Assembly: GCA_937903035.1 (NCBI GenBank)
Contig: CALCZP010000004.1
Span: forward strand, 181,506 to 245,505
DNA length: 64,000 bases
Direction: 5' to 3'
Origin: an uncultured bacterium
GTDB lineage: Bacteria; Patescibacteriota; Minisyncoccia; Phycocordibacterales; UBA9973
Numbering within the stretch: the first letter of the stretch is position 1; the number at the start of each line of letters is the position of its first letter. Shown piece by piece: positions 1 to 46,430 of this stretch. A model generated the notes under the pieces. That model made no database searches. It had not been told where the DNA came from and saw only the letters and a list, made by a program, of their open reading frames with translations. The position numbers and the translations under genes are program-made.

Positions 1-750
<750 letters not shown>

Positions 751-26801: not shown

Positions 26802-28262
26802 TTATCCTAATCTCGCAAAGAGTGGTGTCTCTGGTTTTTTGTTTGAGCGAATAAGTTCGATAAGTTTGGTAGATGTCTCAGGCATGTATGGCGCGAGTAC
26901 GACTGCGATTGTGTAGAGCTCTTGGACGAGAGAAGTGATCATTCGCTTCCCTTCCTCTACATCAGTCTTGATAACTGAGAAGGGCTTTTCAAGTGCGATC
27001 TTTGTATCGAGCTCTCCAACTGATTCCCAGATTGTATTCATCGCCTTTTGGATATCAAATGCTTCCATTGATGCAGCAACTTTCTCCCCAAGCTCAGTCT
27101 TTGGTAGCCCCTCAAATACATCACAATGTGTTGCTGAAAGTGTCAGAATGCGAGATGCAAGGTTCCCAAGTCCGTTGGCAAGATGTGACTGATACGCATC
27201 CTTGATACTTTCCATGGTCATGTCCGCATCTTCAAATGAGTTCATGTGACGGAGTAAATAATATCGGAGCACATCATGAGACAAATCTCCTGCCACATCA
27301 TTGAACGCATCCACAACATCATACGGACTGATGACATTACCGAGCGATTTTGACATCTTTTGCCCACCTGAGTTGATGAAACCGTTTACGATGATGTGTC
27401 GTGACGTTGGGAGATCAGCAGCAAGGAGCATTGCCTGCCACATCGACGACTGCTGACGAGTATTGTCCTTACCACAATACTGCACCGGTGTGCCATCCTT
27501 CCAGTATTTCTCAAATGTTTCTGTATCCTCAGGCCAGCCAAGTGTTGAGATATAGTTGACGAGTGCATCAAACCACACATACATGACATGTGCTTCGTCT
27601 CCTGGAACTTCGATACCCCACGGCATTTTCGCCTTGAGGCGAGAGATGGAGAAGTCTTGGAGGCCTCGGGTGAGAAACGCTTTCATCTCATTGTAGCGGT
27701 AGTCAGGGATTACAAAGTCAGGTGTTGCATCATAAAAAGCCTGGAGCTTATCAGCGACTTTTGAATACGCGAAGAAATAGTTTTCTTCATTAATGATTTC
27801 AATATCTCGATCAGGATGAATCGGGCATCGTCCAGCATCGTTGAGTTCACTATCAGTCTTTTCGAGTTCACAGCCAACACAATACTTCGCTTCATAGTTT
27901 TTCTTGTAGATATAGCCACGATCAGCGCATCGCTTCCAGAACTCCTGCGCCGCAGTGATATGATGCGGGTCAGTTGTACGAATAAAATGTGCATCAGGAG
28001 AGATACCAAGGAGTGCTACGAGTCCCCGAAATGTTGTTGCATACCGATCAACATACTCCTGTACCGCAATTCCCTCCTTTGCGGCAGCTTGATAGAGCTT
28101 GAGTCCATGTTCATCAGTACCCGTATTAAAAAAGACTTCACAGCCCTGCTCTTTTTTGAAGCGAGCAATAGCATCTGCGCGAATAATCTCCATAGCAAAA
28201 CCAACGTGCGGATCATTGTTCACGTATGGGAGCGTGGTCGTTATATAAAATGGATTGTTCAT
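26802..28262 (-). CDS. metG: Methionyl-tRNA synthetase (short form)
   Basis: Start at the internal ATG (MNNPFYITTTLPYVNNDPHVGF...). KMSKSLGN is present and the anticodon-binding domain is recognisable. The HIGH-region reads HVGF. Confidence 0.85.
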   Translation of the reverse strand: MNNPFYITTTLPYVNNDPHVGFAMEIIRADAIARFKKEQGCEVFFNTGTDEHGLKLYQAAAKEGIAVQEYVDRYATTFRGLVALLGISPDAHFIRTTDPHHITAAQEFWKRCADRGYIYKKNYEAKYCVGCELEKTDSELNDAGRCPIHPDRDIEIINEENYFFAYSKVADKLQAFYDATPDFVIPDYRYNEMKAFLTRGLQDFSISRLKAKMPWGIEVPGDEAHVMYVWFDALVNYISTLGWPEDTETFEKYWKDGTPVQYCGKDNTRQQSSMWQAMLLAADLPTSRHIIVNGFINSGGQKMSKSLGNVISPYDVVDAFNDVAGDLSHDVLRYYLLRHMNSFEDADMTMESIKDAYQSHLANGLGNLASRILTLSATHCDVFEGLPKTELGEKVAASMEAFDIQKAMNTIWESVGELDTKIALEKPFSVIKTDVEEGKRMITSLVQELYTIAVVLAPYMPETSTKLIELIRSNKKPETPLFARLG

Positions 28263-28272
28263 AATAGAAAAA

Positions 28273-29349
28273 TTATTCAGGAAGGTTCTGGGTAACAGGG
28301 ATGAGTTTGCGCTTTTCGATATCACTCATATATTCAAGGACAAAGACTGCAACCGGCATTGCAATGATCGCCCCCCAGAATCCGGCAAGTGTAATACCAA
28401 TCAAGAATGCGAGCAAGACAACGAGTGGTGGAATACCGACCACACGACGAGCAACAACTGGTGAGAGTACGTAGCTCTCAAGCTGTTGAACAATGATATA
28501 AAATACCATCACTTTCACTCCTAGGAGGACTCCACCATCAATCACCGCAAAGAGTATTGCGGGTACTGATGCAAAGATGATACCAAACGGCACAAGCTCA
28601 GCAATCGCTGTAATAAGACCAATAAGAAATGCATACTGTACACCAAGGAGTGCAAACACCACAAAGGTGATCGCTCCCATGATGAGTGCAAGCAGGAGCT
28701 GTCCTTTGAACCAAAGACCGATCTTGTACTGCGTGCGAAGCCAGAGTCCTACCACATACTTCTCATGTTTTTTTGGCGTAAGAATACGCAGGAATGTTGC
28801 GAGACCGTCCTCTTGGATCGAGAGATAAAATGCCATCACAATCACAAGGATGGCATTCACTGCGCCGCCAAATGTTGAGCCGATCACACTGGTCGCGCCT
28901 TGTGAGAGGAGTGCTGTCGCATTTTTCACACTACCGAGCAAGTCAGTAAGTGATGACCCCTTGGTAATCGTTGAGACAAACTGTGTCGCCCCTTCGATTG
29001 ACTGTGTTGAAATTGATGATGTCTCTGGTAGGTAGCCGAGAAGGAGCGTAATCATTCCCGAGAGCTCACGAATCACAATCGGTACAAACGCATAGAAGAT
29101 AGCAGTGAGAAATCCTACTACGAGCGCAAAAATGATCGGGACGGAAAGTGACCGGTTCATCTTGTACTTCTTGAGCGCCTGGACACCTGGCTCAACAAAT
29201 GACGCAATGACAACCGCTACAATAATTAAAAGCAAAATATCACGTATTTTAAACAGGAGATATGCTCCAAACATGATACAGAGGGTACGGATGATTGTAT
29301 CATTGGTGATACGGATGGAGCGACCTTCAGACATAGTGATATGGTACAC
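28273..29349 (-). CDS. AI-2E family transporter (PerM/UPF0118-like permease)
   Basis: 358 aa with about 8 TM. The topology and overall pattern are consistent with AI-2E family permeases. Confidence 0.55.
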   Translation of the reverse strand: MYHITMSEGRSIRITNDTIIRTLCIMFGAYLLFKIRDILLLIIVAVVIASFVEPGVQALKKYKMNRSLSVPIIFALVVGFLTAIFYAFVPIVIRELSGMITLLLGYLPETSSISTQSIEGATQFVSTITKGSSLTDLLGSVKNATALLSQGATSVIGSTFGGAVNAILVIVMAFYLSIQEDGLATFLRILTPKKHEKYVVGLWLRTQYKIGLWFKGQLLLALIMGAITFVVFALLGVQYAFLIGLITAIAELVPFGIIFASVPAILFAVIDGGVLLGVKVMVFYIIVQQLESYVLSPVVARRVVGIPPLVVLLAFLIGITLAGFWGAIIAMPVAVFVLEYMSDIEKRKLIPVTQNLPE

Positions 29350-30641: not shown

Positions 30642-31964
30642 TTAGCTCATTCGTTCGTTGAGATATGCAGGAAGAGCACTGATTGCAACACGCTCTTGGG
30701 TGCCAGTATCACGATCACGCACGGTGACCGTATCGAGGAGATCAGGATTCTCTCCGAGCGTATCAAAGTCAACCACAATACAACATGGTGTACCAATCTC
30801 ATCTTGGCGACGGTAGCGCTTGCCGATATTGCCGTTGTCATCCCATGCCACAGACCCCATTGATTTCTTGAGTGCACTATAGAGAATCCGTGCTTTCTCA
30901 ACGAGCTCTGGTTTGTTTTTCAACAGTGGTGAGACACATGCTTTGTATGGTGCAAGTACTACCGGAAGCTTGAGTACAATACGGGTATCAGCACCATCGC
31001 CTTCTTCGCGATATGCACTTGCAAGCACTGCAAGGACCGTGCGATCCACACCAAATGATGGCTCAATACAGTGCGGTGTCACCTTCTCACCTGTTTCATC
31101 TTCAACAACATAGAGCGGTACGGTACTTGCATCAGCATGGGTGTTCAAGTCAAAGTTGGTACGGTATGCAAGACCATAGAGCTCCTTGCGACCGAATGGA
31201 AAGTCGAACTCAAAATCAATCGTGCGCTTTGAGTAGTGTGCGAGATCTCCTTCGGAAACTTCGAGTTCATGCACTTTGTCAGCAGGAATACCGAGAGACG
31301 CGATCCATGCATGCACTGATACACGCCAGTCTTCAAACCGATCTTTCCAGTGTGCTTCATGCACGAAGTATTCAATCTCCATCTGTTCGAATTCACGAGA
31401 ACGGAAAATAAAGTCTCGTGGTGCGATCTCATTTCGAAATGCCTTACCGATCTGCGCGAGACCAAACGGAAGCTTGGGATGAATACTATCAACAACGTTT
31501 TTAAAGTTCACGAACATGCCTTGTGCAGTTTCTGGTCGAAGATATGCGATAGAGTCCGCGTCTTCGAGTGCACCCACTGTCGTCTTGAACATCATATTAA
31601 ACTGACGAGCTTCCCCAAGTGTCCCAGTTTTGTTGCAGGTTGGGCACGCATCACCTTCAAGATGATCTGCGCGAAACCGTGACTTACAATTTGAGCATTC
31701 AACCAACGGATCAGAAAATCCACCAACGTGACCTGATGCTTTCCAGACATTCTGGTTCATCAAAATAGCAGCATCCACACCATACATATCCTCTCGATCA
31801 GTCACAAAGGTCTTCCACCAGAGGTTCTGGATGTTGCGCTTGAGCTCGATACCGAGTGGGCCATAGTCCCACGTACCCGCAAGTCCCCCATAGATCTCAG
31901 ACCCTTGAAAAATAAAGCCACGGCGCTTGCACAAACTGATGAGTTGTTCCATTGATGCATTCAT
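30642..31964 (-). CDS. glyQS: Glycyl-tRNA synthetase (alpha2 dimeric class II type)
   Basis: 440 aa. The N-terminus is RRGFIFQGSEIYGGLAGTWDYGPLG, with class II motifs and a C-terminal anticodon-binding domain. Confidence 0.85.
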   Translation of the reverse strand: MNASMEQLISLCKRRGFIFQGSEIYGGLAGTWDYGPLGIELKRNIQNLWWKTFVTDREDMYGVDAAILMNQNVWKASGHVGGFSDPLVECSNCKSRFRADHLEGDACPTCNKTGTLGEARQFNMMFKTTVGALEDADSIAYLRPETAQGMFVNFKNVVDSIHPKLPFGLAQIGKAFRNEIAPRDFIFRSREFEQMEIEYFVHEAHWKDRFEDWRVSVHAWIASLGIPADKVHELEVSEGDLAHYSKRTIDFEFDFPFGRKELYGLAYRTNFDLNTHADASTVPLYVVEDETGEKVTPHCIEPSFGVDRTVLAVLASAYREEGDGADTRIVLKLPVVLAPYKACVSPLLKNKPELVEKARILYSALKKSMGSVAWDDNGNIGKRYRRQDEIGTPCCIVVDFDTLGENPDLLDTVTVRDRDTGTQERVAISALPAYLNERMS

Positions 31965-34857: not shown

Positions 34858-34885
34858 AAACAGCCGACATACGTCGGCTGTTTTT
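34858..34885. terminator. Intrinsic terminator
   Basis: AAACAGCCGACATACGTCGGCTGTTTTT. Confidence 0.65.
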
Positions 34886-35447
34886 ATTTCTCTATTTCTG
34901 CAAGAAGTTCTGGAAATTTATCCATACCATCCCCGGAAGTAAAATGTCCTTTGTCGGAAAATTCTCTAAACGATATAGCAGGAAGTACTGACCTGATCTT
35001 CTCTATACTTTTTAGAATACCATCTTCGTCATCGGTCGAATAAAAGACCGTGATACCAGTGGTTCGACTTTCAAGAGTGGGATCAATATTATATTCAGAA
35101 AAGCCGGTCACCACTCCAGGATTCGCAAGTATTGATGGTGCAACGAGTACTACTTTTCCAACAGTAATCTTTGTCTCACTCAACCACCGCAACAGAAATC
35201 CTCCTCCCCTGCTATGCCCAACGAGTATAGTATTTTCATCAACTGCAAACTGTTCAAATATGTTTTTCCATTCATCATAGTCAGGTGCAAATGCACGAGG
35301 CAGTTCTGGAGTCTGCGTCAAAGTGTCTCGACAGAGCAATTCCTTTTGCAGCCATGGCAACCAATGACTGTTTGATGGTGATGGAAAGCTCGTATCATAA
35401 TACTCATCTTTTTCGGGACGTCCGTGAATAATGATCGCTGTTTTCAT
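34884..35447 (-). CDS. Alpha/beta-fold serine hydrolase (YdeN/RBBP9-like)
   Basis: Start at the internal ATG (MKTAIIIHGRPEKDEYYDTSFPSPSNSHWLPWLQKEL...LVGHSRGG...). GHSRG is the nucleophile elbow. Confidence 0.6.
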   Translation of the reverse strand: MKTAIIIHGRPEKDEYYDTSFPSPSNSHWLPWLQKELLCRDTLTQTPELPRAFAPDYDEWKNIFEQFAVDENTILVGHSRGGGFLLRWLSETKITVGKVVLVAPSILANPGVVTGFSEYNIDPTLESRTTGITVFYSTDDEDGILKSIEKIRSVLPAISFREFSDKGHFTSGDGMDKFPELLAEIEK

Positions 35448-35448
35448 A

Positions 35449-38400
35449 TTAGCTGAGTGTAATAGCTTCTCCACCAATCGCAACACTAGTGGCACCCACG
35501 GTCTTTTTCAGTTCCTCACCAAAACTATCAACGACTGATTGATACTGAAATGGAAGTGTAAGAGTGATGATATCAGATGGTGCAAGACCTTTGTCTTTGC
35601 GCATGTCTTGGACCGTACGTACAAGCTCACGGTACTCACCTTCGAGTTTAAGTTGAAGTGTGATCGTTGTATCAAGCTTTGTTTCTTCACCTGCGATCAC
35701 TGACTTCACATTGAGTTCCTGCATCACAATCGCTGCGTATTGGTCGCTGAGATTCCAGTTTTTGACATACAGTGCCTGGAGTGGCTGACGGACTGCGATA
35801 CCCTCTTTTTTACGAAGTGCATTTCCTTGTGTACAAACCTCGCGCACGGTAGCCATATCTTTCAATAGCTCATCACTCACTGGCATTACTGCTGGCCAAG
35901 TACTCAAGTGCACACTCTCCTCGTTTGATAAGGACTTCAATTTCTGCCAGATATCTTCTGCTGCAAATGGTGCAAATGGTGCCATGAGCTGTGCGACTGT
36001 TTTGAGTACGCGGTAGAGTGTCGCTTTTGCGGCAACATCACCATCCTTGATGCGATCGCGACTCCGACGCACATACCAGGTCGAAAGGTCATCAATAAAG
36101 TCACGAAGTGCTCGTACCGGCTCAAGTAGCTTGTAGGTATCGAGACTTTCAGTCATCAGACTCGTGAGTTGATCGAGCCGAGTTGTAATCCATGCGTCGA
36201 GCACATTATCACCACTTGGATCTACCTCTTCTACGTTTGGATCTCGATAGAGGTCGTAGAATGAGAGCACATTGTAGAGCAATCCGAATACCTGACGTTG
36301 AAGCTCGACGACTGTTTTCTCATCATAGTTCTTGCTATCACCTGGCTGGTTGACTGAGTACATCCAGAGACGGAGTGTATCGACACCGTACTTCTCCATT
36401 TGCTCCCATGGGTTCACGATGTTGCCAATAGACTTACTCATTTTCTTACCTTGTGCATCAAGAAGATGTCCAAGACAAATGACGTTTTTGTATGCCTTGC
36501 CACGCCCAGTGAGCAAGCCAATCGCATGGAGTGTGTAGAACCATCCACGAGTCTGATCGATAGCTTCGGAGATAAAGTCAGCTGGATATGCAATCTCTCC
36601 ATCAAACGGATAATGATCCTGTGCAAACGGCATCGCTCCTGAGTCAAACCACACATCCATCACCTCTTTGGTGCGGCGATATTCCTTGCCATCTTTGACA
36701 AGCACTACATCATCGATGAACGGACGGTGGAGATCAAGCTCAAACTGCGCATTATGTGGAAGTGGTACAAAGTGAAGCGGACGGACTTCGGCATTACTGA
36801 AGTTCACATAGTCGCGCGTTTCTTCAAAGAGACGATCAAAGCTAATCCCTCGCGCTACAAGCTCAAGTGCGCGCGTTGATGCACCATGGGCAACGATCAA
36901 AATATTCTTGCCCTGGTAGCGAGATTCAATATCGTAGAGCGCCTCACCTGCACGCTTGATCACATCGGCATATGATTCACCATCAACAGTCTTGAACCCA
37001 TAGCGATCAGCTGCCTTGTTGCGCATTTCAAAGTATGACTCGATCGGCTTTCCTTCAAATGCACTACCCACATTCCACTCCCCGAGACGAGCATCGGTCA
37101 CGATAGCTTCGGCAGCTAATCCAAGCTTCTCAGCGACAATACGCGCTGTCTCTTGGGTACGAGCAAATGGTGACGCGATGATGAGATCGATCTGTTTGTC
37201 AGCGAGCGCAGTCGCACTTTGAATTGCCTGCTCTTTGCCACGAGTGGTGAGTGGATTTGTGGTTGCAGTATTCACATTCCAGTTCCCTGCAACGTTAAAC
37301 TCTGTCTCGCCATGCCGCATGACAAAGTACTTGTTGTTATTATGCTTGGCATATTTCTTGAGCATATCGATCGAGTCGACAACCATGCGGTCAGTATCTT
37401 CTGAAATCCAAATCGGAAGCGGTGTGCCCCAGTAGCGCTCGCGTGAGATCGCCCAGTCCTTGATACCGTCGAGCCATTCGCCAAAGCGCCCTTCTTTGAT
37501 ATGTGACGGCTCCCAGTTGATGCTTTCATTCTCAGCAACAAGTGTGTCACGAAGTTTCGACATAGCGATATACCATGAGTCACGCGCGTAGTAGATGAGC
37601 GCAGTTTTACAGCGCCAGCAGTGCGGGTATGAGTGTTCGTACTTTTCTTTCTTGAAGAGGAGTCCGCGATGTGCGAGGTCTTTGATGATGTCGACTGCGA
37701 CTTCTTCGTCTTTGACAAATCTTCCTTCAAGAAAATCAGTGCCTGCAATAAACTTTCCTTCGACATTCACCGTGTGGAATTTCGGAAGACCAACCTTGGT
37801 ACCAAGCTCAAAGTCCTCTGCACCATACATTGGTGCAATATGGACGATACCACTACCATCAGTCGTTGTGACAAAGTCAGCAGTATAGACCTTATACGCA
37901 TTGGTAAGTTTTTCTTTTTCTGTACCAGTGATCTGTGCGGCAAGGTATGGATAGAGTGGCTCATACTGCATATCCGCCAAATCTTCTCCAAAATCTCTTC
38001 GCACTTCTTCATAACCATCACCAACCAAATCTTTTTTATCTTCAGCAACAATTAAAATTTCATTCTCTTTTTTGAGCCAAAGATATGTAATATTAGCACC
38101 TACCGCCAGTGCAACATTCCCTGGCAATGTCCATGGTGTTGTTGTCCAAGCAACAATATAAACATTCTCAAAATCCTTAACTTTTGCCTTAAACTTTGCG
38201 TATACTGTCAGATCTTTATCATCCTGATATCCTTGCGCAAGCTCATGGGTCGCAAGTGTTGTTCCGCATCGCGCACACCATGGTGAGACTCGATAGTCCT
38301 TGTAGAGGAGACCCTGATCGTTGACCTTACCGACAATATTCCAGAGACTCTCCATATAGCGAGGATTGAACGTGTAGTACGCCTTGTCCTTGTCGACCCA

Positions 38401-38823
38401 GTAGCCAATACGATCGGTGAAATCTTCCCAGTCTTTAATATAGGTAAAGACGCTGTCCTTACATTCTTTGTTAAATTTTTCGATACCGTAGGCTTCGATG
38501 TCTTTTTTTGAAGCAAGTTCCAATTTCTTTTCGATCTGAAGCTCGACCGGAAGTCCGTGAGTATCCCATCCGGCACGGCGCGGTACATGGAAGCCCTGCA
38601 TGGTCTTGTAGCGAGGGATCACGTCCTTGAATGCACGTGCGAGCAAGTGATGAAGCGCTGGCTTTGCATTTGCTGTTGGCGGTCCTTCAAAAAAGACAAA
38701 CTCACCCTTGGTCGCAGGCTTCTCAAGTGTTTTTTTGAATATGTCATTATCGCGCCAAAAATCGAGCATTCGCTCTTCACGAAGTGCCGACTCGCTTTTC
38801 TGTTGGTTTGTTGATTCATTCAT
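35449..38823 (-). CDS. ileS: Isoleucyl-tRNA synthetase carrying an in-frame histidine-phosphatase (PGAM-like) domain insertion
   Basis: 1124 aa. IleS catalytic core, CP1 editing domain (AWTTTPWTLPGN), KMSKS (KMSKSIGN) and anticodon-binding region are all present. Between ISRERYWGTPLP and DVWFDSG there is an extra ~200 aa with RHGETEFN...LIVAHGASTRAL, the two catalytic-His motifs of the histidine phosphatase superfamily. The HIGH-position reads ALHH. Confidence 0.85.
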   Translation of the reverse strand: MNESTNQQKSESALREERMLDFWRDNDIFKKTLEKPATKGEFVFFEGPPTANAKPALHHLLARAFKDVIPRYKTMQGFHVPRRAGWDTHGLPVELQIEKKLELASKKDIEAYGIEKFNKECKDSVFTYIKDWEDFTDRIGYWVDKDKAYYTFNPRYMESLWNIVGKVNDQGLLYKDYRVSPWCARCGTTLATHELAQGYQDDKDLTVYAKFKAKVKDFENVYIVAWTTTPWTLPGNVALAVGANITYLWLKKENEILIVAEDKKDLVGDGYEEVRRDFGEDLADMQYEPLYPYLAAQITGTEKEKLTNAYKVYTADFVTTTDGSGIVHIAPMYGAEDFELGTKVGLPKFHTVNVEGKFIAGTDFLEGRFVKDEEVAVDIIKDLAHRGLLFKKEKYEHSYPHCWRCKTALIYYARDSWYIAMSKLRDTLVAENESINWEPSHIKEGRFGEWLDGIKDWAISRERYWGTPLPIWISEDTDRMVVDSIDMLKKYAKHNNNKYFVMRHGETEFNVAGNWNVNTATTNPLTTRGKEQAIQSATALADKQIDLIIASPFARTQETARIVAEKLGLAAEAIVTDARLGEWNVGSAFEGKPIESYFEMRNKAADRYGFKTVDGESYADVIKRAGEALYDIESRYQGKNILIVAHGASTRALELVARGISFDRLFEETRDYVNFSNAEVRPLHFVPLPHNAQFELDLHRPFIDDVVLVKDGKEYRRTKEVMDVWFDSGAMPFAQDHYPFDGEIAYPADFISEAIDQTRGWFYTLHAIGLLTGRGKAYKNVICLGHLLDAQGKKMSKSIGNIVNPWEQMEKYGVDTLRLWMYSVNQPGDSKNYDEKTVVELQRQVFGLLYNVLSFYDLYRDPNVEEVDPSGDNVLDAWITTRLDQLTSLMTESLDTYKLLEPVRALRDFIDDLSTWYVRRSRDRIKDGDVAAKATLYRVLKTVAQLMAPFAPFAAEDIWQKLKSLSNEESVHLSTWPAVMPVSDELLKDMATVREVCTQGNALRKKEGIAVRQPLQALYVKNWNLSDQYAAIVMQELNVKSVIAGEETKLDTTITLQLKLEGEYRELVRTVQDMRKDKGLAPSDIITLTLPFQYQSVVDSFGEELKKTVGATSVAIGGEAITLS

Positions 38824-39055: not shown

Positions 39056-41596
39056 TTAGCATAAAGCCTGTGCTGGTTCCAGTACATTGTTCTTTTTGGA
39101 ACGATAAAAAAAGTGCTTCACAATTTCAACTACGAGGAAGTAGCACAGCGTAATACCCACAAGTGAAAGTACGATTGTGAGCGGGATTGGTATGAAGCCA
39201 AATGTTGTACCGAGGAATGAGAGTGCGACACCCCACGCAACAGTAGTCGCAATAAGTGCTGAGAGTATCACCGCGAGATGTGGCTTGCGTGCCTTCCAGA
39301 TACTACGAGCAGATCGGATCAAAAAGATTACAAAAACTTGCGAGAGGAATGACTGGATAAACCATCCTGTTTGAAATCCAGAAGCCGAAAGATGAAATAC
39401 AGCAAACAGTACATAGAACGTTACGAAATCAAACACTGAACTAATGAGACCAAAAACAATCATGAAGCGTTTGATATGACCGATATTCCATGGCGTTGGA
39501 CGATCAAGAACTTCAGGATCGACATTGTCTGCCATAAGTCCCAGCTGTGATGTTTCGTAGAGTAAGTTATTCAACAGTATCTGTGCAGGCAACATCGGGA
39601 GAAATGGAAGCACGAGAGATGCAACCGTCATTGATATCATGTTGCCAAAGTTTGAGCTGATCGCCATTGAGATGTACTTCATCGTATTTGCAAATGTGCG
39701 ACGACCCTCTGCCACACCACTCACGAGCTGATCGAGGTCTTTTGTGAGAAGTACAATATCAGCACTTTCTTTTGCAACATCAGTCGCATTCTCTACTGAA
39801 ATACCGACATCGGCAGTCTTGAGTGCGGGTGCATCATTAATACCATCCCCCATATATCCGACGACATGTCCTCTGGACTGCAATGCTTTGATAATGCGAT
39901 TTTTCTGCACTGGCGTAACACGCGCAAATATCGTCGTCTCTTCTGCACGAACTGCGAGTTCAGTATCAGTGAGTGCGTCGACTTCAGCTGCATCCAATGT
40001 ACCGAGTGAGACAATACCGACATCACGGACGATTTTCTCAGCCACAAGCTTATGATCCCCTGTCACAATCTTGATTGCGATCGATTTGTGACACAGCTCA
40101 TCGAGCACTGCCTTGACCGATGGCTTTGGTGGATCAATAAATGCAATGAATCCTGAGAACATGAGACCTACCTCATCGTGCGTACTGTAGCTCTGCTGTG
40201 GTGTCTGAAAGATACGACGTGCTACCCCAATCACTCGATAACCTTCGGACGAGAGTGACTCAAAGAGTGCGAGTGCTTTGGCACGCTGCTCAGGTGCGAG
40301 TGTGCTTGCATCCATTACTCCCTCAGGTGCACCTTTGGTGATAAGCATATCAGTGCCATTGGGCAAACTTACAATCAGACTGTCACGACGTCGCTCAAAG
40401 TCAAATGGTATTTCATCACGCTTTTTATAGTGTGTAATCGGAAATGCTTGAAACTGCACGATCGCCTCATCAAGTGGCGTGCGCACTCCACCGCGCATAC
40501 TTGACGTTAGGTAGGCAGACTCAATCACTTCTTCGGATCGATGTGCATCAATGTTCACATACTTCACAACACTGATCTTGTCTTCGGTGAGCGTCCCTGT
40601 TTTGTCAGTACACAAAATATCCATTGAACCAAAGTTCTCGATTGCAGAGAGCTTTTTCACAATCACTCCTTTCTTCGACATACGAATCGATGCCCATGAA
40701 AGATTGACCGCAATAATCATTGGCAACAGCTCTGGGGTAATACCCACTGCAAGCGCAAGCGAAAACGTGAGCGACGACACGATGTCATGTTTAAAGACGA
40801 CATTTACAATAAAGATACAGATGGTGAGTACGAGTACAATGCGAGTGATGAGCAAACTGAATGATTTGATACCGGCCTCAAACTCACTTGCTGTTTCTTT
40901 GACCGAAAGGAGTGACACAATATCAGCAAATTTTGTATGACGACCGGTTGCAGTCACTTGGAGCAGTCCGTCTCCACTCACGACCCCACTTCCCATGTAC
41001 ACTGTCATTTCAGTTGGCTTTTCAACAGGGAGTGACTCACCGGTAAGAGATGACTCGTTTACAAAGAGCTGACATGATCTCACCATTATCCCATCTGCCG
41101 GGACAACATTCCCTGCTGCAAGCATAACAATATCCCCAAGTACCACATCCTGACTTTCAATCAGTACCTCTCTACCATCACGAATAACACGGACTTTTGG
41201 TGATACTCGTTTTGCTAATGTCTCTGCTGCTTTTTGTGATTTGTACGAAACAGCAAAATCAAGCACCGCACTGATGATGACGATTGTAATAATCAACACA
41301 CCACTGATAGTTGCCCCCGTCACAAGCGCAATACCTGCTGCGACCAGGAGTATGATCATGAGCGGACTTTTGAACTCTTGGAGAAATGTCGCAAATGCAG
41401 ACTGCTGCTCACGTGCAACCAGGGTGTTTTTGCCGTAGCGAACCTGAAGCCCCTCTACTTGAGATTGACTGATACCGGTGAACCCTGCGCCAGTCACCTC
41501 CATATTAGATATGAGGATTAGCCTCCTTGAGCGCTTGCTTATTTGCCTCAACCATCGCAATAAGCTTTTGTACGAGACGTTTTGGATCTTCATCAA
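39056..41596 (-). CDS. mgtA: Mg2+-importing P-type ATPase (MgtA-like)
   Basis: 846 aa with DKTGTLT, TGDH and GDGINDAPAL motifs and strong overall similarity to MgtA. An alternative ATG at 41503 would remove the overlap with the upstream gene. Confidence 0.85.
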   Translation of the reverse strand: MMKIQNVSYKSLLRWLRQISKRSRRLILISNMEVTGAGFTGISQSQVEGLQVRYGKNTLVAREQQSAFATFLQEFKSPLMIILLVAAGIALVTGATISGVLIITIVIISAVLDFAVSYKSQKAAETLAKRVSPKVRVIRDGREVLIESQDVVLGDIVMLAAGNVVPADGIMVRSCQLFVNESSLTGESLPVEKPTEMTVYMGSGVVSGDGLLQVTATGRHTKFADIVSLLSVKETASEFEAGIKSFSLLITRIVLVLTICIFIVNVVFKHDIVSSLTFSLALAVGITPELLPMIIAVNLSWASIRMSKKGVIVKKLSAIENFGSMDILCTDKTGTLTEDKISVVKYVNIDAHRSEEVIESAYLTSSMRGGVRTPLDEAIVQFQAFPITHYKKRDEIPFDFERRRDSLIVSLPNGTDMLITKGAPEGVMDASTLAPEQRAKALALFESLSSEGYRVIGVARRIFQTPQQSYSTHDEVGLMFSGFIAFIDPPKPSVKAVLDELCHKSIAIKIVTGDHKLVAEKIVRDVGIVSLGTLDAAEVDALTDTELAVRAEETTIFARVTPVQKNRIIKALQSRGHVVGYMGDGINDAPALKTADVGISVENATDVAKESADIVLLTKDLDQLVSGVAEGRRTFANTMKYISMAISSNFGNMISMTVASLVLPFLPMLPAQILLNNLLYETSQLGLMADNVDPEVLDRPTPWNIGHIKRFMIVFGLISSVFDFVTFYVLFAVFHLSASGFQTGWFIQSFLSQVFVIFLIRSARSIWKARKPHLAVILSALIATTVAWGVALSFLGTTFGFIPIPLTIVLSLVGITLCYFLVVEIVKHFFYRSKKNNVLEPAQALC

Positions 41597-42152
41597 AAAT
41601 CACATGTGGTGCAGGACGATTACCATTTTTGATCAGTGTACGAAAGTCATTTGCGGTCGCCCATGGCCCATCCAGAATACCAATTGGCTTGGTATCTTCA
41701 AATGCAATTGTAAACTCATGGATTGTCCCAATACGTCCACATCCAATCAAGAGTGCGTCACATGAACGAGTAAACAAAAGGTCGCGCCCCGGAAAACCAA
41801 AGCCGGTATAGATGATGAGATCCATGTAGTCGATCGGTAATCTCCAGTTCTCAACGTGATCCTTTTCATCAGTTGCTGGCGAAAGTCCGATAGAGACACC
41901 ACGCTCTTCTTTTGCACCCATCGCTGACCAGAGTGGAAAGCCTGTTGTCGCACCGGTGATGATGATACCTCCTTGACGTACGATCTCACGACCGAGCTCC
42001 TGCGCTTTCTCAAGTGCATGAAGTCCGCAGTGACTGGTCTCTGCTGCACCACTCACACCAATTTTGATTTTCAGATGCGCATGCTTCTCATTATTATCGA
42101 GCGGCCCGTTGTAACAGACATATTTATCAGTTGGTTGTACTGGTTCGTTCAT
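41505..42152 (-). CDS. LOG/TIGR00725-family Rossmann-fold nucleotide-binding protein
   Basis: 215 aa: GVSGAAETSHCG...GGIIITGATTGFP...GFGFPGRDLL, a LOG-family glycine-rich pattern. Confidence 0.55.
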   Translation of the reverse strand: MNEPVQPTDKYVCYNGPLDNNEKHAHLKIKIGVSGAAETSHCGLHALEKAQELGREIVRQGGIIITGATTGFPLWSAMGAKEERGVSIGLSPATDEKDHVENWRLPIDYMDLIIYTGFGFPGRDLLFTRSCDALLIGCGRIGTIHEFTIAFEDTKPIGILDGPWATANDFRTLIKNGNRPAPHVIFDEDPKRLVQKLIAMVEANKQALKEANPHI

Positions 42153-42183: not shown

Positions 42184-43551
42184 TTAACACTCCAATTCTA
42201 CCACATCGCCTTTCTCAGGAGCGACAGCACTGACACCTAGATAGTCACGCAGACGTTGCGTGAGATAGAGCGATGACTTTGGCTCGCCCATCACGACAAA
42301 TGCTTTCTTGAGATTGTCCGCAATATCACCCACAAATTCAATCAAATGATCGGAGTCTTTGTGACCTGAATATCCATCAATAAACACGATGCGTGCTCGC
42401 ACTGGCACCGTCTGGCCATTAATACGGACTTCTTTCATACCATCTTGGATCAAGCGGCCAAGTGTGCCTTGCGACTGATAGCCGGTGAGGAGCAGAATAT
42501 TGTTAGGGTCAGGGAGATAGTGCGCTTCATGATGCAAAATACGCCCACCGTTGCTCATACCACTTCCTGCAATCACAATCTTTGGATTTGGTGCACGAAC
42601 GATCTGTTTAGACTCTTCAGTGAGAAGGGTTGACTTGAGCCCTGGAAAACTAAAAATATCATCCCCTTCTTTGATTTGTGACTGTGCAAAGTCATTAAAG
42701 TATTTTGAGTACTTGTGATAAACGGACGTGAGTTTGATCGCAAGGGGTGAGTCAAGAAAGATCGGCATCTGAGGTACACGATCATGTTCTACCAACTGAT
42801 CAATCTCAAACAATAGCTCCTGTGCACGCTCGAGTGAAAATGTTGGAATAATGAGCGCCCCCTTTCGTTTGAAGTTATCCTCAATCGTTGCTTCGAGTCG
42901 TGCACGACGTTCTTCACGCGCAATGTGATTGCGATCACCATAGACACTTTCCATAATGAGGTAGTCGACGTTCGCGAGCTTCTCCGTATCACGTAACAAT
43001 GGCGATGGACTGTTGCCAAGATCTCCGGTAAACACAATTTTTTTGTTGTTGTAGATCACCTCAAGCATACCAGATCCAAGGATATGCCCTGAGTCTCGAT
43101 AGCGGAATACAAAATCCCCGATTCTGAAGTCCTGATGATAGTCAACGACTTTCCAATTTGAAAACACTTTTTTGAGGACACTGGGTGCATAGATCTTGGA
43201 CAGGAGCTCATTCTCCGACTTTGACATGATATTCGCAGTGTCATCAAGCATGAGCTCGGTGATATCCTTGGTTGGTATGGTTGAATAAATCTCGCCTTCA
43301 AATCCTTCGTACACGAGCTTTGGAATGAGCCCGATATGATCGATGTGTGCATGGGTGATAAAGAGTGCATCGATCGACTTCACATCATACGGAAACGGCT
43401 GCCAGTTGTTCTCATCAGCCATTTTAGTCCCCTGCTCCATACCGCAGTCCACCAAAAAATGTTTATCATCTCCTTCAAATAAAAAGTTGGCACCGGTTAC
43501 ACTTCCAGTACCGCCAACGAACGTGAGTTTGAGTTTTTTTGATTGCATCAC
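42184..43551 (-). CDS. MBL-fold metallo-hydrolase of the beta-CASP RNA-processing nuclease family
   Basis: 455 aa with FITHAHIDHIG (HxHxDH) and downstream beta-CASP Asp/His motifs. Confidence 0.75.
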   Translation of the reverse strand: MMQSKKLKLTFVGGTGSVTGANFLFEGDDKHFLVDCGMEQGTKMADENNWQPFPYDVKSIDALFITHAHIDHIGLIPKLVYEGFEGEIYSTIPTKDITELMLDDTANIMSKSENELLSKIYAPSVLKKVFSNWKVVDYHQDFRIGDFVFRYRDSGHILGSGMLEVIYNNKKIVFTGDLGNSPSPLLRDTEKLANVDYLIMESVYGDRNHIAREERRARLEATIEDNFKRKGALIIPTFSLERAQELLFEIDQLVEHDRVPQMPIFLDSPLAIKLTSVYHKYSKYFNDFAQSQIKEGDDIFSFPGLKSTLLTEESKQIVRAPNPKIVIAGSGMSNGGRILHHEAHYLPDPNNILLLTGYQSQGTLGRLIQDGMKEVRINGQTVPVRARIVFIDGYSGHKDSDHLIEFVGDIADNLKKAFVVMGEPKSSLYLTQRLRDYLGVSAVAPEKGDVVELEC

Positions 43552-44759: not shown

Positions 44760-46430
44760 TTACATCTTTTCAGGTACTGTACTACCAAGCAGTGCGAGAC
44801 CTTTTGTCATCGTCCTATAAAGTGCATGCGTAATACCAAGTCGATACGCAGATGCTTCAGTATTGTCATCAATAATCTTCTGCTGCCCATAGTAGCTATT
44901 GAATGCCTGTGCGAGCTCCATAAGATAGGTCACCAGGTAATGCGGTGTCCATTCAGTCTGACAGCGAATCACGATATCCGGGAAACGTGCAATCATACGC
45001 TCAAGGATTTCAGTACCCACGATCGGTTTTTGCATACTTGGAGCAATACCTGCTTCTTCACCTTTCTTCACAAGCGACATCGCGCGCACTGCGGTGTATT
45101 GGAGATAGGGACCACTATCCCCTTCAAATGACAATGATGTTTCAGGATCAAAGTTGATATCCTTGCCTGGCATTGCGCGCAAGATTACCAGCCTGATCGC
45201 AGCAATACCAATCATCTCTGCTGACTCCGGAGTGATATCAGCATTCTTTTCTTTTACTTCCTCAACAACGGTTGCAAGCACATCCTCTGCAAGCGGTACC
45301 CCACCAAGTCGTGATGACATTTTTTGACCCTTGAAGCTCATGCGACCGTGATACCGATGGAGACTATGTTGCTTCCAGAGAGGATTGATATGCATCGCTG
45401 CATCCAGAACGACGTTGAAGTGCGACACCTGTTGCGCATCGGTAATAAAAATAGAGAGATCAGGATTGTGTTTTGCAAATTTGAGTTCAAGTAGTCCGAG
45501 GTCTTTTGCTTCATACGTCGGATTGCCTTTGCTGTTGATAAAGACTGCAGTATGAAGCTTTTGGGACTCGTCCGGTGTGTACACAATCGCCCCTTCACTC
45601 TCGGTAAAGACTTTTGGTGTATGTGCAAGCACGAGCTTCTTGCCATCAACTCCTGCTTCACTTTCATAGATATAAGAGTCAAAGTGTGAGCCGAGTCGTG
45701 CGACGATTGTTTCAAAGTACGCGATATTGAATTCTTTGCAGCGCTCATAGAGTGACCATTCTGGTGATGATGTTTGTGCATAGAGGTTGTCAGCAATTTC
45801 CTTTACTCGCGTCTGCACTGATTCATCATCCTCGTATCGCTTTGTCCCCTCAACATATGCATCACCGAGTATTGAAACCTGCTCTGGTGCAAAGTCTGCA
45901 CCGTATTTCTCAAGGAGTATAAACACCGCCTTTGCCACACCAAGTGACACATCAGATGGAAATGACATCGTAGACACATCAGCGCCAGAAGCTTTGGCAA
46001 GACGAGTGATCGACTCCCCTACAGTGTTGTTCATGAGGTGTCCAATATGAAATGGCTTAAAAAGATTTGGAGATGAATGCTCCACGAGAATTTTCTTGCC
46101 TTCATACACGGTTGTCTGCCCCCATGAGTCTTTATTCACATCCGCAAGAATATCGAGGATCACCGAGCGATCAAGTTCAAAGTTGATGAAGCCGGGCGCC
46201 GCAACACTCACTGATGCGATGCGACTATCTGCGGACTGGAGTACCTGCATGAGCTCAGTCGCGATCTCGGTCGGATTTTTGCCGAGCTGCTTTGAGGCGA
46301 TCAGCGCAACATTAGTCGCATAGTCACCATGCGAGAGATCCTTGGGACGCTCGAGACTAAACGCCACATCAGCTATGCCAAACTTCGCCTGAAGCACGTC
46401 TGCAATGAGTGTTCGGATGGTGGATTCCAT
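44760..46430 (-). CDS. argS: Arginyl-tRNA synthetase
   Basis: 556 aa with an N-terminal Arg add-on domain, HIGH (PFHIGHLMNNTVG) and a C-terminal DALR anticodon-binding region. Confidence 0.9.
   Translation of the reverse strand: MESTIRTLIADVLQAKFGIADVAFSLERPKDLSHGDYATNVALIASKQLGKNPTEIATELMQVLQSADSRIASVSVAAPGFINFELDRSVILDILADVNKDSWGQTTVYEGKKILVEHSSPNLFKPFHIGHLMNNTVGESITRLAKASGADVSTMSFPSDVSLGVAKAVFILLEKYGADFAPEQVSILGDAYVEGTKRYEDDESVQTRVKEIADNLYAQTSSPEWSLYERCKEFNIAYFETIVARLGSHFDSYIYESEAGVDGKKLVLAHTPKVFTESEGAIVYTPDESQKLHTAVFINSKGNPTYEAKDLGLLELKFAKHNPDLSIFITDAQQVSHFNVVLDAAMHINPLWKQHSLHRYHGRMSFKGQKMSSRLGGVPLAEDVLATVVEEVKEKNADITPESAEMIGIAAIRLVILRAMPGKDINFDPETSLSFEGDSGPYLQYTAVRAMSLVKKGEEAGIAPSMQKPIVGTEILERMIARFPDIVIRCQTEWTPHYLVTYLMELAQAFNSYYGQQKIIDDNTEASAYRLGITHALYRTMTKGLALLGSTVPEKM

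What the first reader, a model, noticed from the sequence alone, without database searches (positions are those of the whole stretch)
36740..37335. Isoleucyl-tRNA synthetase with an embedded histidine-phosphatase (PGAM-like) domain
- The single continuous ileS ORF keeps all IleS hallmarks on both sides (CP1 editing T-rich peptide, ISRERYWGTP, DVWFDSG, KMSKS, anticodon-binding domain).
- It carries an extra ~200 residues between the ISRxRxWG and WFDSG blocks, a region that normally holds only about 50-60 aa.
- The insertion has both catalytic signatures of histidine phosphatase superfamily branch 1: RHGET.FN (phospho-acceptor His) and the downstream (L/V)(I/V)(V/A)AHG...RAL His.
- I am not aware of a described IleS with a phosphatase domain inserted in the catalytic core.
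- Possible functions (all speculative):
  - Editing or hydrolysis of a phosphorylated nucleotide or tRNA end, such as a 2',3'-cyclic phosphate or 3'-phosphate.
  - Ap4A/alarmone metabolism.
  - A moonlighting regulatory activity.
Basis: seen in the sequence. Interest (0 to 1): 0.8.

Follow-up and report, generated by a model that had tools for sequence, protein, structure and literature searches.

The report
Isoleucyl-tRNA synthetase carrying a phosphatase domain
The enzyme that loads isoleucine onto tRNA in this uncultured ultra-small bacterium has a complete, apparently active phosphatase domain spliced into a surface loop; this is an old, widespread and seemingly undescribed habit of these bacteria, and what the phosphatase acts on is unknown.

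Summary
One uninterrupted 1124-aa ORF (window 35449-38823, minus strand) is a full type-2 IleRS. A 196-aa histidine phosphatase domain (residues 496-691) is inserted cleanly between two residues that are adjacent in the solved Priestia megaterium IleRS2.

- **Probably active:** the catalytic set (R503, H504, N510, R555, E582, H646) is invariant in 120/120 close homologues.
- **Not a misjoin:** the identical protein lies on 5 contigs from three sources, and 39 species-representative MAGs carry it in conserved synteny.
- **Wider pattern:** across Patescibacteria (CPR), histidine phosphatase domains occupy at least four slots in IleRS and the homologous slot in ValRS, in one to three copies. Other enzyme domains (GNAT, P-loop kinase, HAD phosphatase) often share these slots.
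- **Literature:** I found no paper describing this.

The identity and age of the insertion are secure. The function is inferred: most likely an active phosphomonoesterase kept on the synthetase by selection. Its substrate is unknown, and the fold and charge favour a small molecule over RNA. I rate it a new variant of a known kind, of moderately high interest.

The parts
35449..38823 (-). ileS CDS: one 1124-aa ORF encoding a type-2 isoleucyl-tRNA synthetase with an embedded phosphatase
   Evidence: NCBIfam ileS 843.7 bits (cutoff 621.4). Best PDB match is P. megaterium IleRS2 8c8w, E 2.5e-228.
38647..38658 (-). Class I signature motif, in the non-canonical form A-L-H-H (residues 56-59) instead of HXGH
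   Evidence: 119/120 homologues have ALHH. PMC10485003 links the A/GXHH form in IleRS2 to mupirocin hyper-resistance.
38122..38148 (-). CP1 editing-domain threonine-rich peptide WTTTPWTLP (residues 226-234)
   Evidence: translation; invariant columns.
37426..37449 (-). ISRERYWG block (residues 459-466), upstream boundary motif
   Evidence: 120/120 conserved.
37339..37425 (-). N-terminal arm of the CP2 hairpin (residues 467-495). It aligns to PmIleRS2 up to residue 481, and the CxxC of the zinc knuckle is lost.
   Evidence: alignment (WECEGC in Pm versus WISEDT here). No Cys between residues 405 and 783.
36751..37338 (-). Inserted histidine phosphatase domain (residues 496-691; Pfam His_Phos_1 covers 500-674)
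37309..37317 (-). RHG motif: R503, H504 (predicted phospho-acceptor nucleophile), G505
   Evidence: R503 and H504 are 120/120 and are kept in nearly all embedded copies in other slots.
37159..37161 (-). R555, second phosphate-binding arginine (SPFARTQETA)
   Evidence: aligned to the PhoE arginine.
37078..37080 (-). E582, predicted general acid/base
   Evidence: aligns to the Glu of PhoE 'lrEihlGd'.
36883..36888 (-). H646-G647, second catalytic histidine (IVAHG)
36658..36750 (-). C-terminal arm of the CP2 hairpin (residues 692-722; ...FELDLHRPFIDDVVLVKDGKEYRRTKEVM). It aligns to PmIleRS2 from residue 482, and the second CxxC (CPVC) is lost.
36637..36657 (-). DVWFDSG block (residues 723-729), where the chain returns to the catalytic core
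   Evidence: The core resumes at PmIleRS2 residue 513 according to PMC10485003.
36430..36444 (-). KMSKS loop (residues 794-798)
   Evidence: 120/120.
35773..36198 (-). Anticodon-binding domain (Pfam Anticodon_1, residues 876-1017)
35479..35679 (-). Type-2 C-terminal domain (DUF5915, residues 1049-1115). It lacks the optional ~80-aa INS present in some relatives.
   Evidence: Relatives carry an extra 80-83 aa at about 1042/1049. INS is described in bioRxiv 10.64898/2026.02.03.703510.

Best explanation
**What it is (shown).** This is the organism's housekeeping type-2 isoleucyl-tRNA synthetase. A complete PhoE/PspA-like histidine phosphatase domain (residues 496-691) sits at the tip of the CP2 surface hairpin. 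In other IleRS2 enzymes that hairpin is pinned by a four-cysteine zinc knuckle; here the cysteines are gone.

**Its history (shown).** The insertion is ancient and vertically inherited in Paceibacteria/Nomurabacteria-type Patescibacteria. It is one of at least five separate, slot-specific lineages of such insertions in CPR IleRS and ValRS.

**How it works (inferred).** The synthetase half charges tRNA-Ile in the normal way. The inserted half is an active phosphomonoesterase: H504 takes the phosphate, R503, R555 and H646 hold it, and E582 acts as the acid. Phosphatase modules have been fixed repeatedly in these two sister synthetases, so I infer that selection favours physical attachment and that the phosphatase acts on a phosphate-bearing ligand handled at or near the synthetase.

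**Substrate (undetermined).** The full cap, the acidic surface and the capped-HAD counterpart favour a small molecule, for example pyrophosphate, a nucleotide monophosphate, or a phosphorylated amino-acid or adenylate-like compound. A tRNA 3'-phosphate is the less favoured candidate.
For: **Identity**
- Pfam and NCBIfam assignments.
- Clean insertion between PmIleRS2 residues 481 and 482.

**Likely activity**
- R503, H504, N510, R555, E582, E616, R624 and H646 are invariant in 120/120 homologues.
- They are retained in almost all 168 embedded or stand-alone relatives examined.
- The insert is under purifying selection: 55% mean pairwise identity, like the anticodon-binding (61%) and C-terminal (53%) domains, against 74-76% for the core.

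**Real and vertically inherited**
- The identical protein is on 5 contigs in NCBI, ENA and Logan, and all 120 top homologues carry PF00300.
- 39 GTDB species representatives carry it.
- Its flanking genes recur beside it in most of these loci: RecO in 30, the β-CASP RNase gene and the SLOG gene in 28 each.

**Coupling to the synthetase**
- His_Phos occupies IleRS slots at about 495/692, 707/715, 742/746 and 860/868.
- It occupies the homologous CP2 slot of ValRS in 71 of 120 ValRS relatives.
- Copies cluster by slot and the slot groups are roughly equidistant, so they are old, separate lineages.
- One to three copies occur per protein.
- An unrelated HAD phosphatase pair fills the 742/746 slot in P0340.
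- Every non-stand-alone protein among the 150 best relatives of the insert matched the IleRS query pieces. One of these (P0129) is better assigned to ValRS.
- MetRS, ArgRS and a class II synthetase in the same window have no insert.

**Small-molecule lean**
- The P0340 insert is the capped HAD_2 type.
- The embedded domains are net acidic, median -7 in this slot group.
Against: - No activity or substrate has been measured.
- The same slots also hold in-frame DUF559 endonuclease and IS200-type transposase domains. IleRS may therefore simply tolerate insertions, which would weaken the inference of coupling.
- One 1.02-Mb genome has neither the IleRS nor the ValRS insert (P0342 and P0486 on the same contig), so the module is dispensable for charging.
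- Gene neighbourhoods give no functional partner.
- The full-length AlphaFold model (pTM 0.57) says nothing about where the phosphatase active site points.
- No NCBIfam phosphatase subfamily reaches its cutoff, so specificity cannot be transferred.
- All counts come from top-hit lists, not exhaustive surveys.
Confidence: 0.45

Rival explanations
1. Independent housekeeping phosphatase. The domain is an ordinary small-molecule phosphatase (for example for phosphoserine, sugar phosphate or a cofactor precursor). It merely rides in a permissive loop of a large, essential, constitutively expressed protein in a streamlined genome, with no mechanistic link to aminoacylation.
For: - The closest structures are metabolic phosphatases: PspA, PhoE, GpgP, a riboflavin-pathway phosphatase and CobC.
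- The same slots accept unrelated and even selfish domains such as DUF559 and Y1_Tnp.
- Some genomes lack the insert in both IleRS and ValRS.
- Stand-alone single- and double-domain relatives exist in similarly small genomes.
- No partner gene is conserved next to ileS.
Against: - It does not explain why the host is repeatedly IleRS or ValRS: at least five slot lineages, one to three copies, and a HAD phosphatase as an alternative.
- It does not explain why insertions lie inside the catalytic half rather than at the termini.
- Every non-stand-alone protein among the 150 closest relatives matched IleRS (one is better assigned to ValRS); no other host was seen.
Confidence: 0.3
2. tRNA end-healing module. 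The phosphatase removes a 3'- or 2'-phosphate from a damaged tRNA acceptor end held by the synthetase so that the tRNA can be repaired and charged. In relatives it would work together with a P-loop kinase, as in polynucleotide kinase-phosphatase (PNKP).
For: - Relatives carry P-loop kinase inserts. Their best, weak matches are seryl-tRNA(Sec) kinase (TIGR03574, E 4.5e-10, far below cutoff) and the RNA-repair kinase Pnkp1 (4xrp, E 7e-4).
- A phosphatase plus a kinase on a tRNA-binding scaffold resembles PNKP.
- All slots lie in the half of the enzyme that holds the acceptor arm (with inference).
Against: - This window's protein has no kinase domain.
- To my knowledge, histidine phosphatases are not known to act as RNA 3'-phosphatases.
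- The domain has the full cap of small-molecule enzymes and is net acidic.
- The HAD counterpart is the capped small-molecule type, not the capless PNKP type.
- No ligase gene is nearby.
Confidence: 0.12
3. Target-tethered immunity or regulation. The phosphatase, together with the GNAT, kinase and hydrolase modules seen in relatives, modifies an inhibitor that mimics the aminoacyl-adenylate, or removes an inactivating phosphate from the synthetase itself.
For: - The co-inserted domains are the classes used to inactivate small-molecule inhibitors: a RimI-like GNAT (E 2.8e-10), a P-loop kinase and an α/β serine hydrolase.
- The signature motif is the A/GXHH form linked to mupirocin hyper-resistance. 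This indicates a history of inhibitor pressure on this enzyme.
- Some members of the fold are protein phosphatases: SixA, PGAM5 and Sts appear.
Against: - The argument is entirely by analogy.
- No phosphorylated IleRS or ValRS inhibitor is known to me.
- The window protein has only the phosphatase.
Confidence: 0.1
4. Artefact or dead domain: an assembly misjoin, an intein-like or selfish insertion without function, or a pseudo-enzyme that serves only as a structural expansion.
For: - In-frame selfish-type domains (DUF559, Y1_Tnp) occur in relatives.
- The insert evolves faster than the core.
Against: - The identical protein lies on 5 contigs from 3 sources, hundreds of independent assemblies carry the fusion, and synteny is conserved.
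- GC content matches the rest of the gene: 0.49 against 0.46.
- The catalytic residues are invariant.
- The domain model is confident.
- Copies in different slots share only 26-37% identity yet keep the catalytic set, which indicates long-term purifying selection.
Confidence: 0.03

Closest known systems
Type-2 isoleucyl-tRNA synthetase (IleRS2), e.g. Priestia megaterium IleRS2 (PDB 8c8u/8c8w) and Thermus thermophilus IleRS (1ile)
   Same: - Full domain order: catalytic core, CP1 with editing domain, CP2, anticodon-binding domain and type-2 C-terminal domain (DUF5915).
- KMSKS is present.
- E 2.5e-228 to 8c8w.
- The signature motif is the non-canonical A/GXHH form that PMC10485003 describes for part of IleRS2.
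   Different: - A 196-aa enzyme domain is inserted between the equivalents of Pm residues 481 and 482.
- The CP2 four-cysteine knuckle is lost.
- The optional INS subdomain is absent.
Small branch-1 histidine phosphatases: PhoE (1h2e/1ebb), PspA phosphoserine phosphatase (4ij5), GpgP (6s2q), CobC (6e4b/6nru)
   Same: - Same catalytic residues.
   Different: - Only 24-28% identity.
- No NCBIfam subfamily reaches its cutoff: CobC 80 bits against 162.9, PspA 58 against 350, GpmB 60 against 261.
- It is not free-standing; it is embedded in a synthetase.
- It carries a clade-specific conserved cap motif (RNxxxDRYxFK) and a PLPHN exit linker.
NCBIfam NF040702 'isoleucine--tRNA ligase, N-acetyltransferase domain-containing' (ileS_w_GNAT)
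   Same: A curated precedent for an IleRS with an inserted enzyme domain. GNAT-bearing IleRS relatives of this protein, many of which also carry His_Phos, appear.
   Different: The window protein has no GNAT domain and scores 331 bits against a cutoff of 1999.
Polynucleotide kinase-phosphatase (T4 PNKP, bacterial Pnkp/Pnkp1) RNA end-healing enzymes
   Same: Some CPR IleRS relatives combine a phosphatase with a P-loop kinase on one polypeptide that binds tRNA.
   Different: - The phosphatase fold differs: His_Phos against HAD or calcineurin-like.
- The window protein has no kinase.
- No ligase partner is present.
- The resemblance is weak: E 7e-4 to 4xrp.
6-phosphofructo-2-kinase/fructose-2,6-bisphosphatase
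   Different: - The kinase and phosphatase are fused end to end, not nested in a synthetase.
- No evidence here for a sugar-bisphosphate substrate.

Membership tests
Isoleucyl-tRNA synthetase, type 2 (IleRS2) | Whole-protein match to the curated ileS equivalog above its cutoff | tested here: met
   TIGR00392 scores 843.7 bits against a cutoff of 621.4, in two stretches split by the insert.
Isoleucyl-tRNA synthetase, type 2 (IleRS2) | Class I signature motifs: HXGH (or the A/GXHH variant allowed in IleRS2) and KMSKS | tested here: met
   ALHH at residues 56-59 and KMSKS at 794-798. The variant is described in PMC10485003.
Isoleucyl-tRNA synthetase, type 2 (IleRS2) | CP1 editing domain | tested here: met
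   WTTTPWTLP at residues 226-234. PDB 1wk8 (the isolated IleRS editing domain) matches residues 198-401 with E 9.5e-34.
Isoleucyl-tRNA synthetase, type 2 (IleRS2) | Type-2 C-terminal domain without the IleRS1 zinc-binding domain | tested here: met
   PF19302 DUF5915 at residues 1049-1115. The best PDB hits are IleRS2 and T. thermophilus IleRS; the IleRS1 structures (1ffy, 8c9e) are much weaker.
Isoleucyl-tRNA synthetase, type 2 (IleRS2) | Aminoacylation of tRNA-Ile; being the only ileS of the genome | not testable with these tools
   Only 64 kb of the genome is available. Conserved synteny across 39 species is consistent with the housekeeping copy.
Histidine phosphatase superfamily, branch 1 (Pfam PF00300) | Profile match above the gathering score | tested here: met
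   117.9 bits against 21.7, E 5.6e-34, residues 500-674.
Histidine phosphatase superfamily, branch 1 (Pfam PF00300) | Catalytic set: RHG nucleophile His, two Arg, second His, acidic proton donor | tested here: met
   R503, H504, R555, E582 and H646 are all present, aligned to the PhoE residues, and invariant in 120/120 homologues.
Histidine phosphatase superfamily, branch 1 (Pfam PF00300) | α/β fold of the superfamily | tested here: met
   [not shown]
Histidine phosphatase superfamily, branch 1 (Pfam PF00300) | Phosphatase or mutase activity through a phospho-histidine intermediate | not testable with these tools
   Needs an enzyme assay.
Named phosphatase subfamilies (CobC α-ribazole phosphatase, PspA phosphoserine phosphatase, GpmA/GpmB mutases) | Score above the curated NCBIfam cutoff | tested here: not met
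   CobC 80 bits against 162.9, PspA 58.3 against 350, GpmB 60.5 against 261, archaeal dPGM 58.4 against 225. No subfamily is assigned.
NCBIfam NF040702 ileS_w_GNAT | GNAT domain within IleRS; score above cutoff | tested here: not met
   331.5 bits against 1999. Pfam finds no GNAT hit.
Acquired mupirocin-resistance IleRS (MupA/MupB) | Score above the NCBIfam exception cutoff | tested here: not met
   702-720 bits against a cutoff of 1900. It is related as an IleRS2 but is not MupA or MupB.
PNKP-type RNA end-healing enzymes | Kinase plus 3'-phosphatase on one protein, with an associated ligase | tested here: not met
   The window protein has no kinase domain. No ligase is found in the neighbourhood. 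Kinase inserts exist only in some relatives.

The most novel reading that the evidence does not exclude
Patescibacteria have repeatedly built accessory enzymes into the catalytic half of IleRS and ValRS: histidine or HAD phosphatases, GNAT acetyltransferases and PSTK/PNK-like kinases. On this reading they form a built-in repair or immunity unit. It would act on the synthetase's own ligands, for example by healing a phosphorylated tRNA end, clearing a product, or inactivating an adenylate-mimicking inhibitor. That would be a previously unrecognised way of protecting or tuning an aminoacyl-tRNA synthetase in cis.
Probability: 0.22. Interest if true: 0.85.

Novelty: new variant of a known kind. 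Interest (0 to 1): 0.66.

Why it matters
- **For the field.** Catalytic domains nested inside bacterial aminoacyl-tRNA synthetases are rare. Appended domains are mostly a eukaryotic theme and usually lack enzyme activity. Here an apparently active phosphatase has been kept for a very long time in the two sister synthetases for isoleucine and valine, across a bacterial radiation that makes up a large share of microbial diversity.
- **If the phosphatase works with the synthetase.** It would reveal a new layer of control, repair or self-protection in translation. It would also offer a natural design for inserting enzymes into the CP2 loop.
- **If it does not.** It is still a clear case of how streamlined genomes pack unrelated enzymes into essential proteins, and a warning that annotation pipelines label these genes inconsistently and seldom mention the embedded phosphatase.
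- **Testability.** The protein can be made recombinantly, and the question is open to direct experiment.

Tried and rejected
- **Assembly chimera:** rejected.
- **Locus search with a divergent alignment:** A closer 11-sequence alignment worked but reaches only the window's own clade, so the 39 loci are a lower bound.
- **Gene neighbourhood:** the conserved neighbours are housekeeping genes (β-CASP RNase, SLOG/LOG-like protein, RecO, a DUF11 surface protein, a class II synthetase). No phosphatase partner or RNA ligase appears. Contexts of insert-less IleRS genes and of a stand-alone double-domain relative were equally uninformative, apart from revealing the ValRS fusion.
- **Full-length AlphaFold model:** pTM 0.57, with low confidence in the synthetase core from a shallow alignment. 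It gives no information on domain orientation, and coordinates are not returned.
- **P0129:** I first counted it as an IleRS with four phosphatase copies. It is better assigned to ValRS (830 bits to the ValRS query). It is a fragment with three copies passing the length filter plus a truncated fourth match.
- **Mutase reading:** not supported. The nearest relatives are the short phosphatase type, and the mutase models are far below cutoff.
- **Literature:** eight full-text searches and targeted reading of three IleRS papers found no description. Subscription-only papers are not covered.
Full report
**1. The observation**

The region lies inside a single 1124-aa ORF on the minus strand, window 35449-38823. 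Pfam finds tRNA-synt_1 (residues 19-497, with a second stretch after the insert), His_Phos_1 (500-674, E 5.6e-34, 117.9 bits against a gathering score of 21.7), Anticodon_1 (876-1017) and DUF5915 (1049-1115). NCBIfam's ileS equivalog scores 843.7 bits against a cutoff of 621.4.

Direct translation confirms WTTTPWTLP, ISRERYWG, DVWFDSG and KMSKS, plus the phosphatase motifs VMRHGETEFN and IVAHGASTRAL. The finding's coordinates correspond to residues 497-695.

**2. Where the extra piece sits**

In the alignment to the solved Priestia megaterium IleRS2 (8c8w, E 2.5e-228), query residue 495 pairs with residue 481 and query 692 with residue 482. The extra 196 residues are therefore a clean insertion between adjacent residues.

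PMC10485003 places the second half of the catalytic core of PmIleRS2 at residues 513-632 and calls the preceding elements CP1 and CP2. Another paper splits the same region into CP core, CP1, CP2 and CP3. The insertion thus lies in the last connective-peptide hairpin, 31 residues before the chain re-enters the core at VIDVWFDSG.

In PmIleRS2 this hairpin carries two CxxC pairs (WECEGC... and ...CPVC...). In the window protein and its clade these positions hold no cysteine. The first zinc site (C183, C186, C402, C405) is kept.

**3. Is the inserted piece a real, working-looking phosphatase?**

- By sequence, the nearest solved proteins are PhoE (1ebb/1h2e, E about 1e-12), PspA phosphoserine phosphatase (4ij5) and CobC.
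- An AlphaFold model of the insert is confident: pLDDT 92.1, pTM 0.89.
- No named subfamily model reaches its cutoff.
- R503, H504, N510, R555, E582, E616, R624 and H646 are invariant in 120 of 120 homologues. They are retained in nearly all of 168 related domains, embedded or free.
- Mean pairwise identity in the insert is 55%. That is lower than in the core (74-76%) and similar to the anticodon-binding (61%) and C-terminal (53%) domains.

This is the pattern expected of a functional domain under purifying selection. Activity itself is inferred, not shown.

**4. Not an artefact**

- The identical protein occurs on five contigs from NCBI, ENA and Logan, the longest 405 kb. All 120 best homologues (62-93% identity, 1072-1201 aa) carry PF00300.
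- A scan of one genome per species found the insert in 39 MAGs titled Nomurabacteria, Paceibacterota, Minisyncoccia or Patescibacteria. Some are titled Saccharibacteria by their depositors.
- Flanking genes recur in most of these loci: the β-CASP RNase gene and the SLOG gene in 28 each, RecO in 30, the DUF11 protein in 27 and the class II synthetase in 22. The serine hydrolase gene is present in 6. The local order is β-CASP RNase, SLOG/LOG-like, ileS, optional serine hydrolase, RecO, DUF11 protein, class II synthetase.
- GC content of the insert (0.49) matches the rest of the gene (0.46).

**5. The wider pattern**

This wider pattern adds more to the finding than any other result here. I searched 1.84 billion representative proteins with the insert alone. 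The 150 best hits were either free-standing proteins (single domains of about 190-205 aa, or double domains of about 410-430 aa) or proteins matching the IleRS query pieces. One of the latter, P0129, is better assigned to ValRS.

Mapping insertions onto the window's numbering shows histidine phosphatase domains in at least four IleRS slots:

| Slot | Approximate position (window numbering) | Location |
|---|---|---|
| A1 | 495/692 | CP2 hairpin tip (the window's case) |
| A2 | 707/715 | position of the second lost CxxC |
| B | 742/746 | just after WFDSG...HYPF |
| C | 860/868 | between the stem-contact region and the anticodon-binding domain |

- Proteins with two or three copies exist, for example P0184 on contigs up to 1.06 Mb, P0281 and P0284.
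- Copies in one protein are only 26-37% identical, yet they keep the catalytic set.
- Domains cluster by slot, and the slot groups are roughly equidistant: median best score 63-110 bits between groups against 218-295 within. Each slot is therefore an old, separate lineage.
- In a genome whose IleRS lacks the insert, the nearby ValRS carries one at the homologous CP2 position, after ISRQIWWGHQIPVWY and before TWFSS.
- Among the 120 proteins listed for that ValRS query (119 after excluding the query itself), 71 carry one to three copies, nearly all in that slot.
- Several large contigs carry both an IleRS and a ValRS with inserts. One carries neither (contig lengths).
- Source names place these proteins in Gracilibacteria, Peregrinibacteria, Peribacteria and Paceibacteria-type MAGs.

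**6. Other passengers**

In the Gracilibacteria- and Peregrinibacteria-type IleRS the same slots also hold other domains:

- a RimI-like GNAT acetyltransferase;
- a P-loop kinase, whose best though weak matches are seryl-tRNA(Sec) kinase and the RNA-repair kinase Pnkp1;
- a tandem pair of capped HAD phosphatases in place of the histidine phosphatase (P0340);
- an α/β serine hydrolase (P0330);
- a DUF559 endonuclease and an IS200-type transposase domain.

NCBI already curates a model for GNAT-bearing IleRS (NF040702). The window protein is not a member of it.

**7. What it most likely does**

*Shown:* a complete IleRS2 and a complete histidine phosphatase with an intact catalytic set share one polypeptide. 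The arrangement is ancient and conserved.

*Inferred:* phosphatase modules of two unrelated folds have been fixed repeatedly, in several slots and copy numbers, in the two sister synthetases. I therefore think selection favours physical attachment and that the phosphatase acts on something the synthetase handles.

Three observations lean towards a small phosphorylated molecule rather than an RNA chain:

- the full cap;
- the capped type of the HAD counterpart;
- the net acidic charge of the embedded domains, median -7 in this slot group.

The kinase inserts give only a weak hint of a tRNA-linked substrate.

The main rival is that IleRS and ValRS are simply permissive landing pads in streamlined genomes and the phosphatase is an unrelated housekeeping enzyme. 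The in-frame endonuclease and transposase inserts support this rival, as does the genome that lacks the module altogether.

My estimates are:

| Explanation | Probability |
|---|---|
| Coupled-phosphatase reading | about 0.45 |
| Independent-enzyme reading | about 0.30 |
| tRNA end-healing | about 0.12 |
| Inhibitor or self-regulation role | about 0.10 |
| Artefact or dead domain | about 0.03 |

The first row is the coupled reading with its small-molecule lean. The tRNA end-healing and inhibitor or self-regulation rows are also ways of being coupled to the synthetase and are counted separately from it. Identity and evolutionary status, as distinct from function, I hold at above 0.95.

**8. Comparison with what is known, and novelty**

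The protein meets every testable criterion for IleRS2 and for branch-1 histidine phosphatases. It fails the cutoffs of all named phosphatase subfamilies, of MupA/MupB and of ileS_w_GNAT. It lacks the kinase and ligase that define PNKP-type repair.

Automated annotation has seen the architecture: precomputed Pfam lists, and JGI names such as 'isoleucyl-tRNA synthetase/phosphohistidine phosphatase SixA/...'. Eight full-text searches and three recent IleRS papers give no description of it. One of those papers surveyed 96,219 IleRS sequences. The library does not cover most subscription journals, so prior description cannot be excluded.

I classify it as a new variant of a known kind.

**9. Limits**

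- All counts come from capped top-hit lists and are lower bounds or samples.
- Slot positions come from local alignments and are good to about ±10 residues.
- The full-length model was uninformative.
- No tool could test activity, substrate, or whether the genome holds a second ileS.

Noticed in passing
window 38647-38658 (-): The class I HIGH-type signature reads A-L-H-H, invariant in 119/120 homologues. This is the non-canonical A/GXHH form that PMC10485003 links to mupirocin hyper-resistance in IleRS2.
   Followed up: partly
window 36658-36750 and 37339-37425 (-): The four-cysteine zinc knuckle of the CP2 hairpin, present in P. megaterium IleRS2, is completely lost in this clade. The first zinc site (C183, C186, C402, C405) is kept. 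The loss coincides with the phosphatase insertion at the hairpin tip.
   Followed up: partly
window 34884-35495 (-): A 203-aa serine hydrolase gene (PF06821) lies immediately downstream of ileS and overlaps its 3' end by 47 nt. It is present in 6 of 39 related loci. An insert-less relative has a similar downstream gene on the opposite strand, with weak PF06821 and PF07819 hits (L040). In one relative (P0330) a Ser_hydrolase domain is inserted in-frame inside IleRS.
   Followed up: partly
L041 15319-19203 (+) and proteins P0396-P0514: Valyl-tRNA synthetases of Gracilibacteria- and Peregrinibacteria-type MAGs carry one to three histidine phosphatase domains at the homologous CP2 slot (71 of 120 relatives). 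In L041 the IleRS of the same contig has none.
   Followed up: yes
proteins P0280-P0364 (relatives, not in the window): IleRS proteins of 1200-1860 aa carry in-frame GNAT, PSTK/PNK-like P-loop kinase, tandem HAD phosphatase, DUF559 (Vsr-like endonuclease) and IS200-type Y1 transposase domains in a few recurrent slots. In-frame endonuclease and transposase domains inside an essential synthetase are odd in their own right.
   Followed up: partly
window 26802-28325 (-), 30642-31964 (-), 44760-46430 (-): Three other aminoacyl-tRNA synthetase genes lie in the same 64 kb: a MetRS-like gene of 507 aa, a class II gene of 440 aa and ArgRS of 556 aa. All are of ordinary size, and none has a phosphatase insert.
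   Followed up: yes
window 1-749 (-): The 5' part of a bacterial 23S rRNA gene (model positions 1-721), cut by the window edge.
   Followed up: no
window 58560-63911 (-): A 1783-aa ORF whose only Pfam hit is the C-terminal intramolecular chaperone of endosialidase/tail-spike type (Peptidase_S74, residues 1564-1620). It is probably a giant surface fibre protein.
   Followed up: no
window 47200-48648 (+): A 482-aa ORF with a Thy1 (ThyX) domain only in residues 39-257. From memory this is about twice the usual ThyX length, and the rest has no hit.
   Followed up: no
window 41505-42152 (-) and 42184-43551 (-): A SLOG cluster-4 (LOG-like) protein and a β-CASP/RMMBL RNase are the conserved upstream neighbours of ileS in 28 of 39 related loci. 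A P-type cation ATPase (39056-41596) is wedged between them and ileS only in this window and a few relatives.
   Followed up: partly
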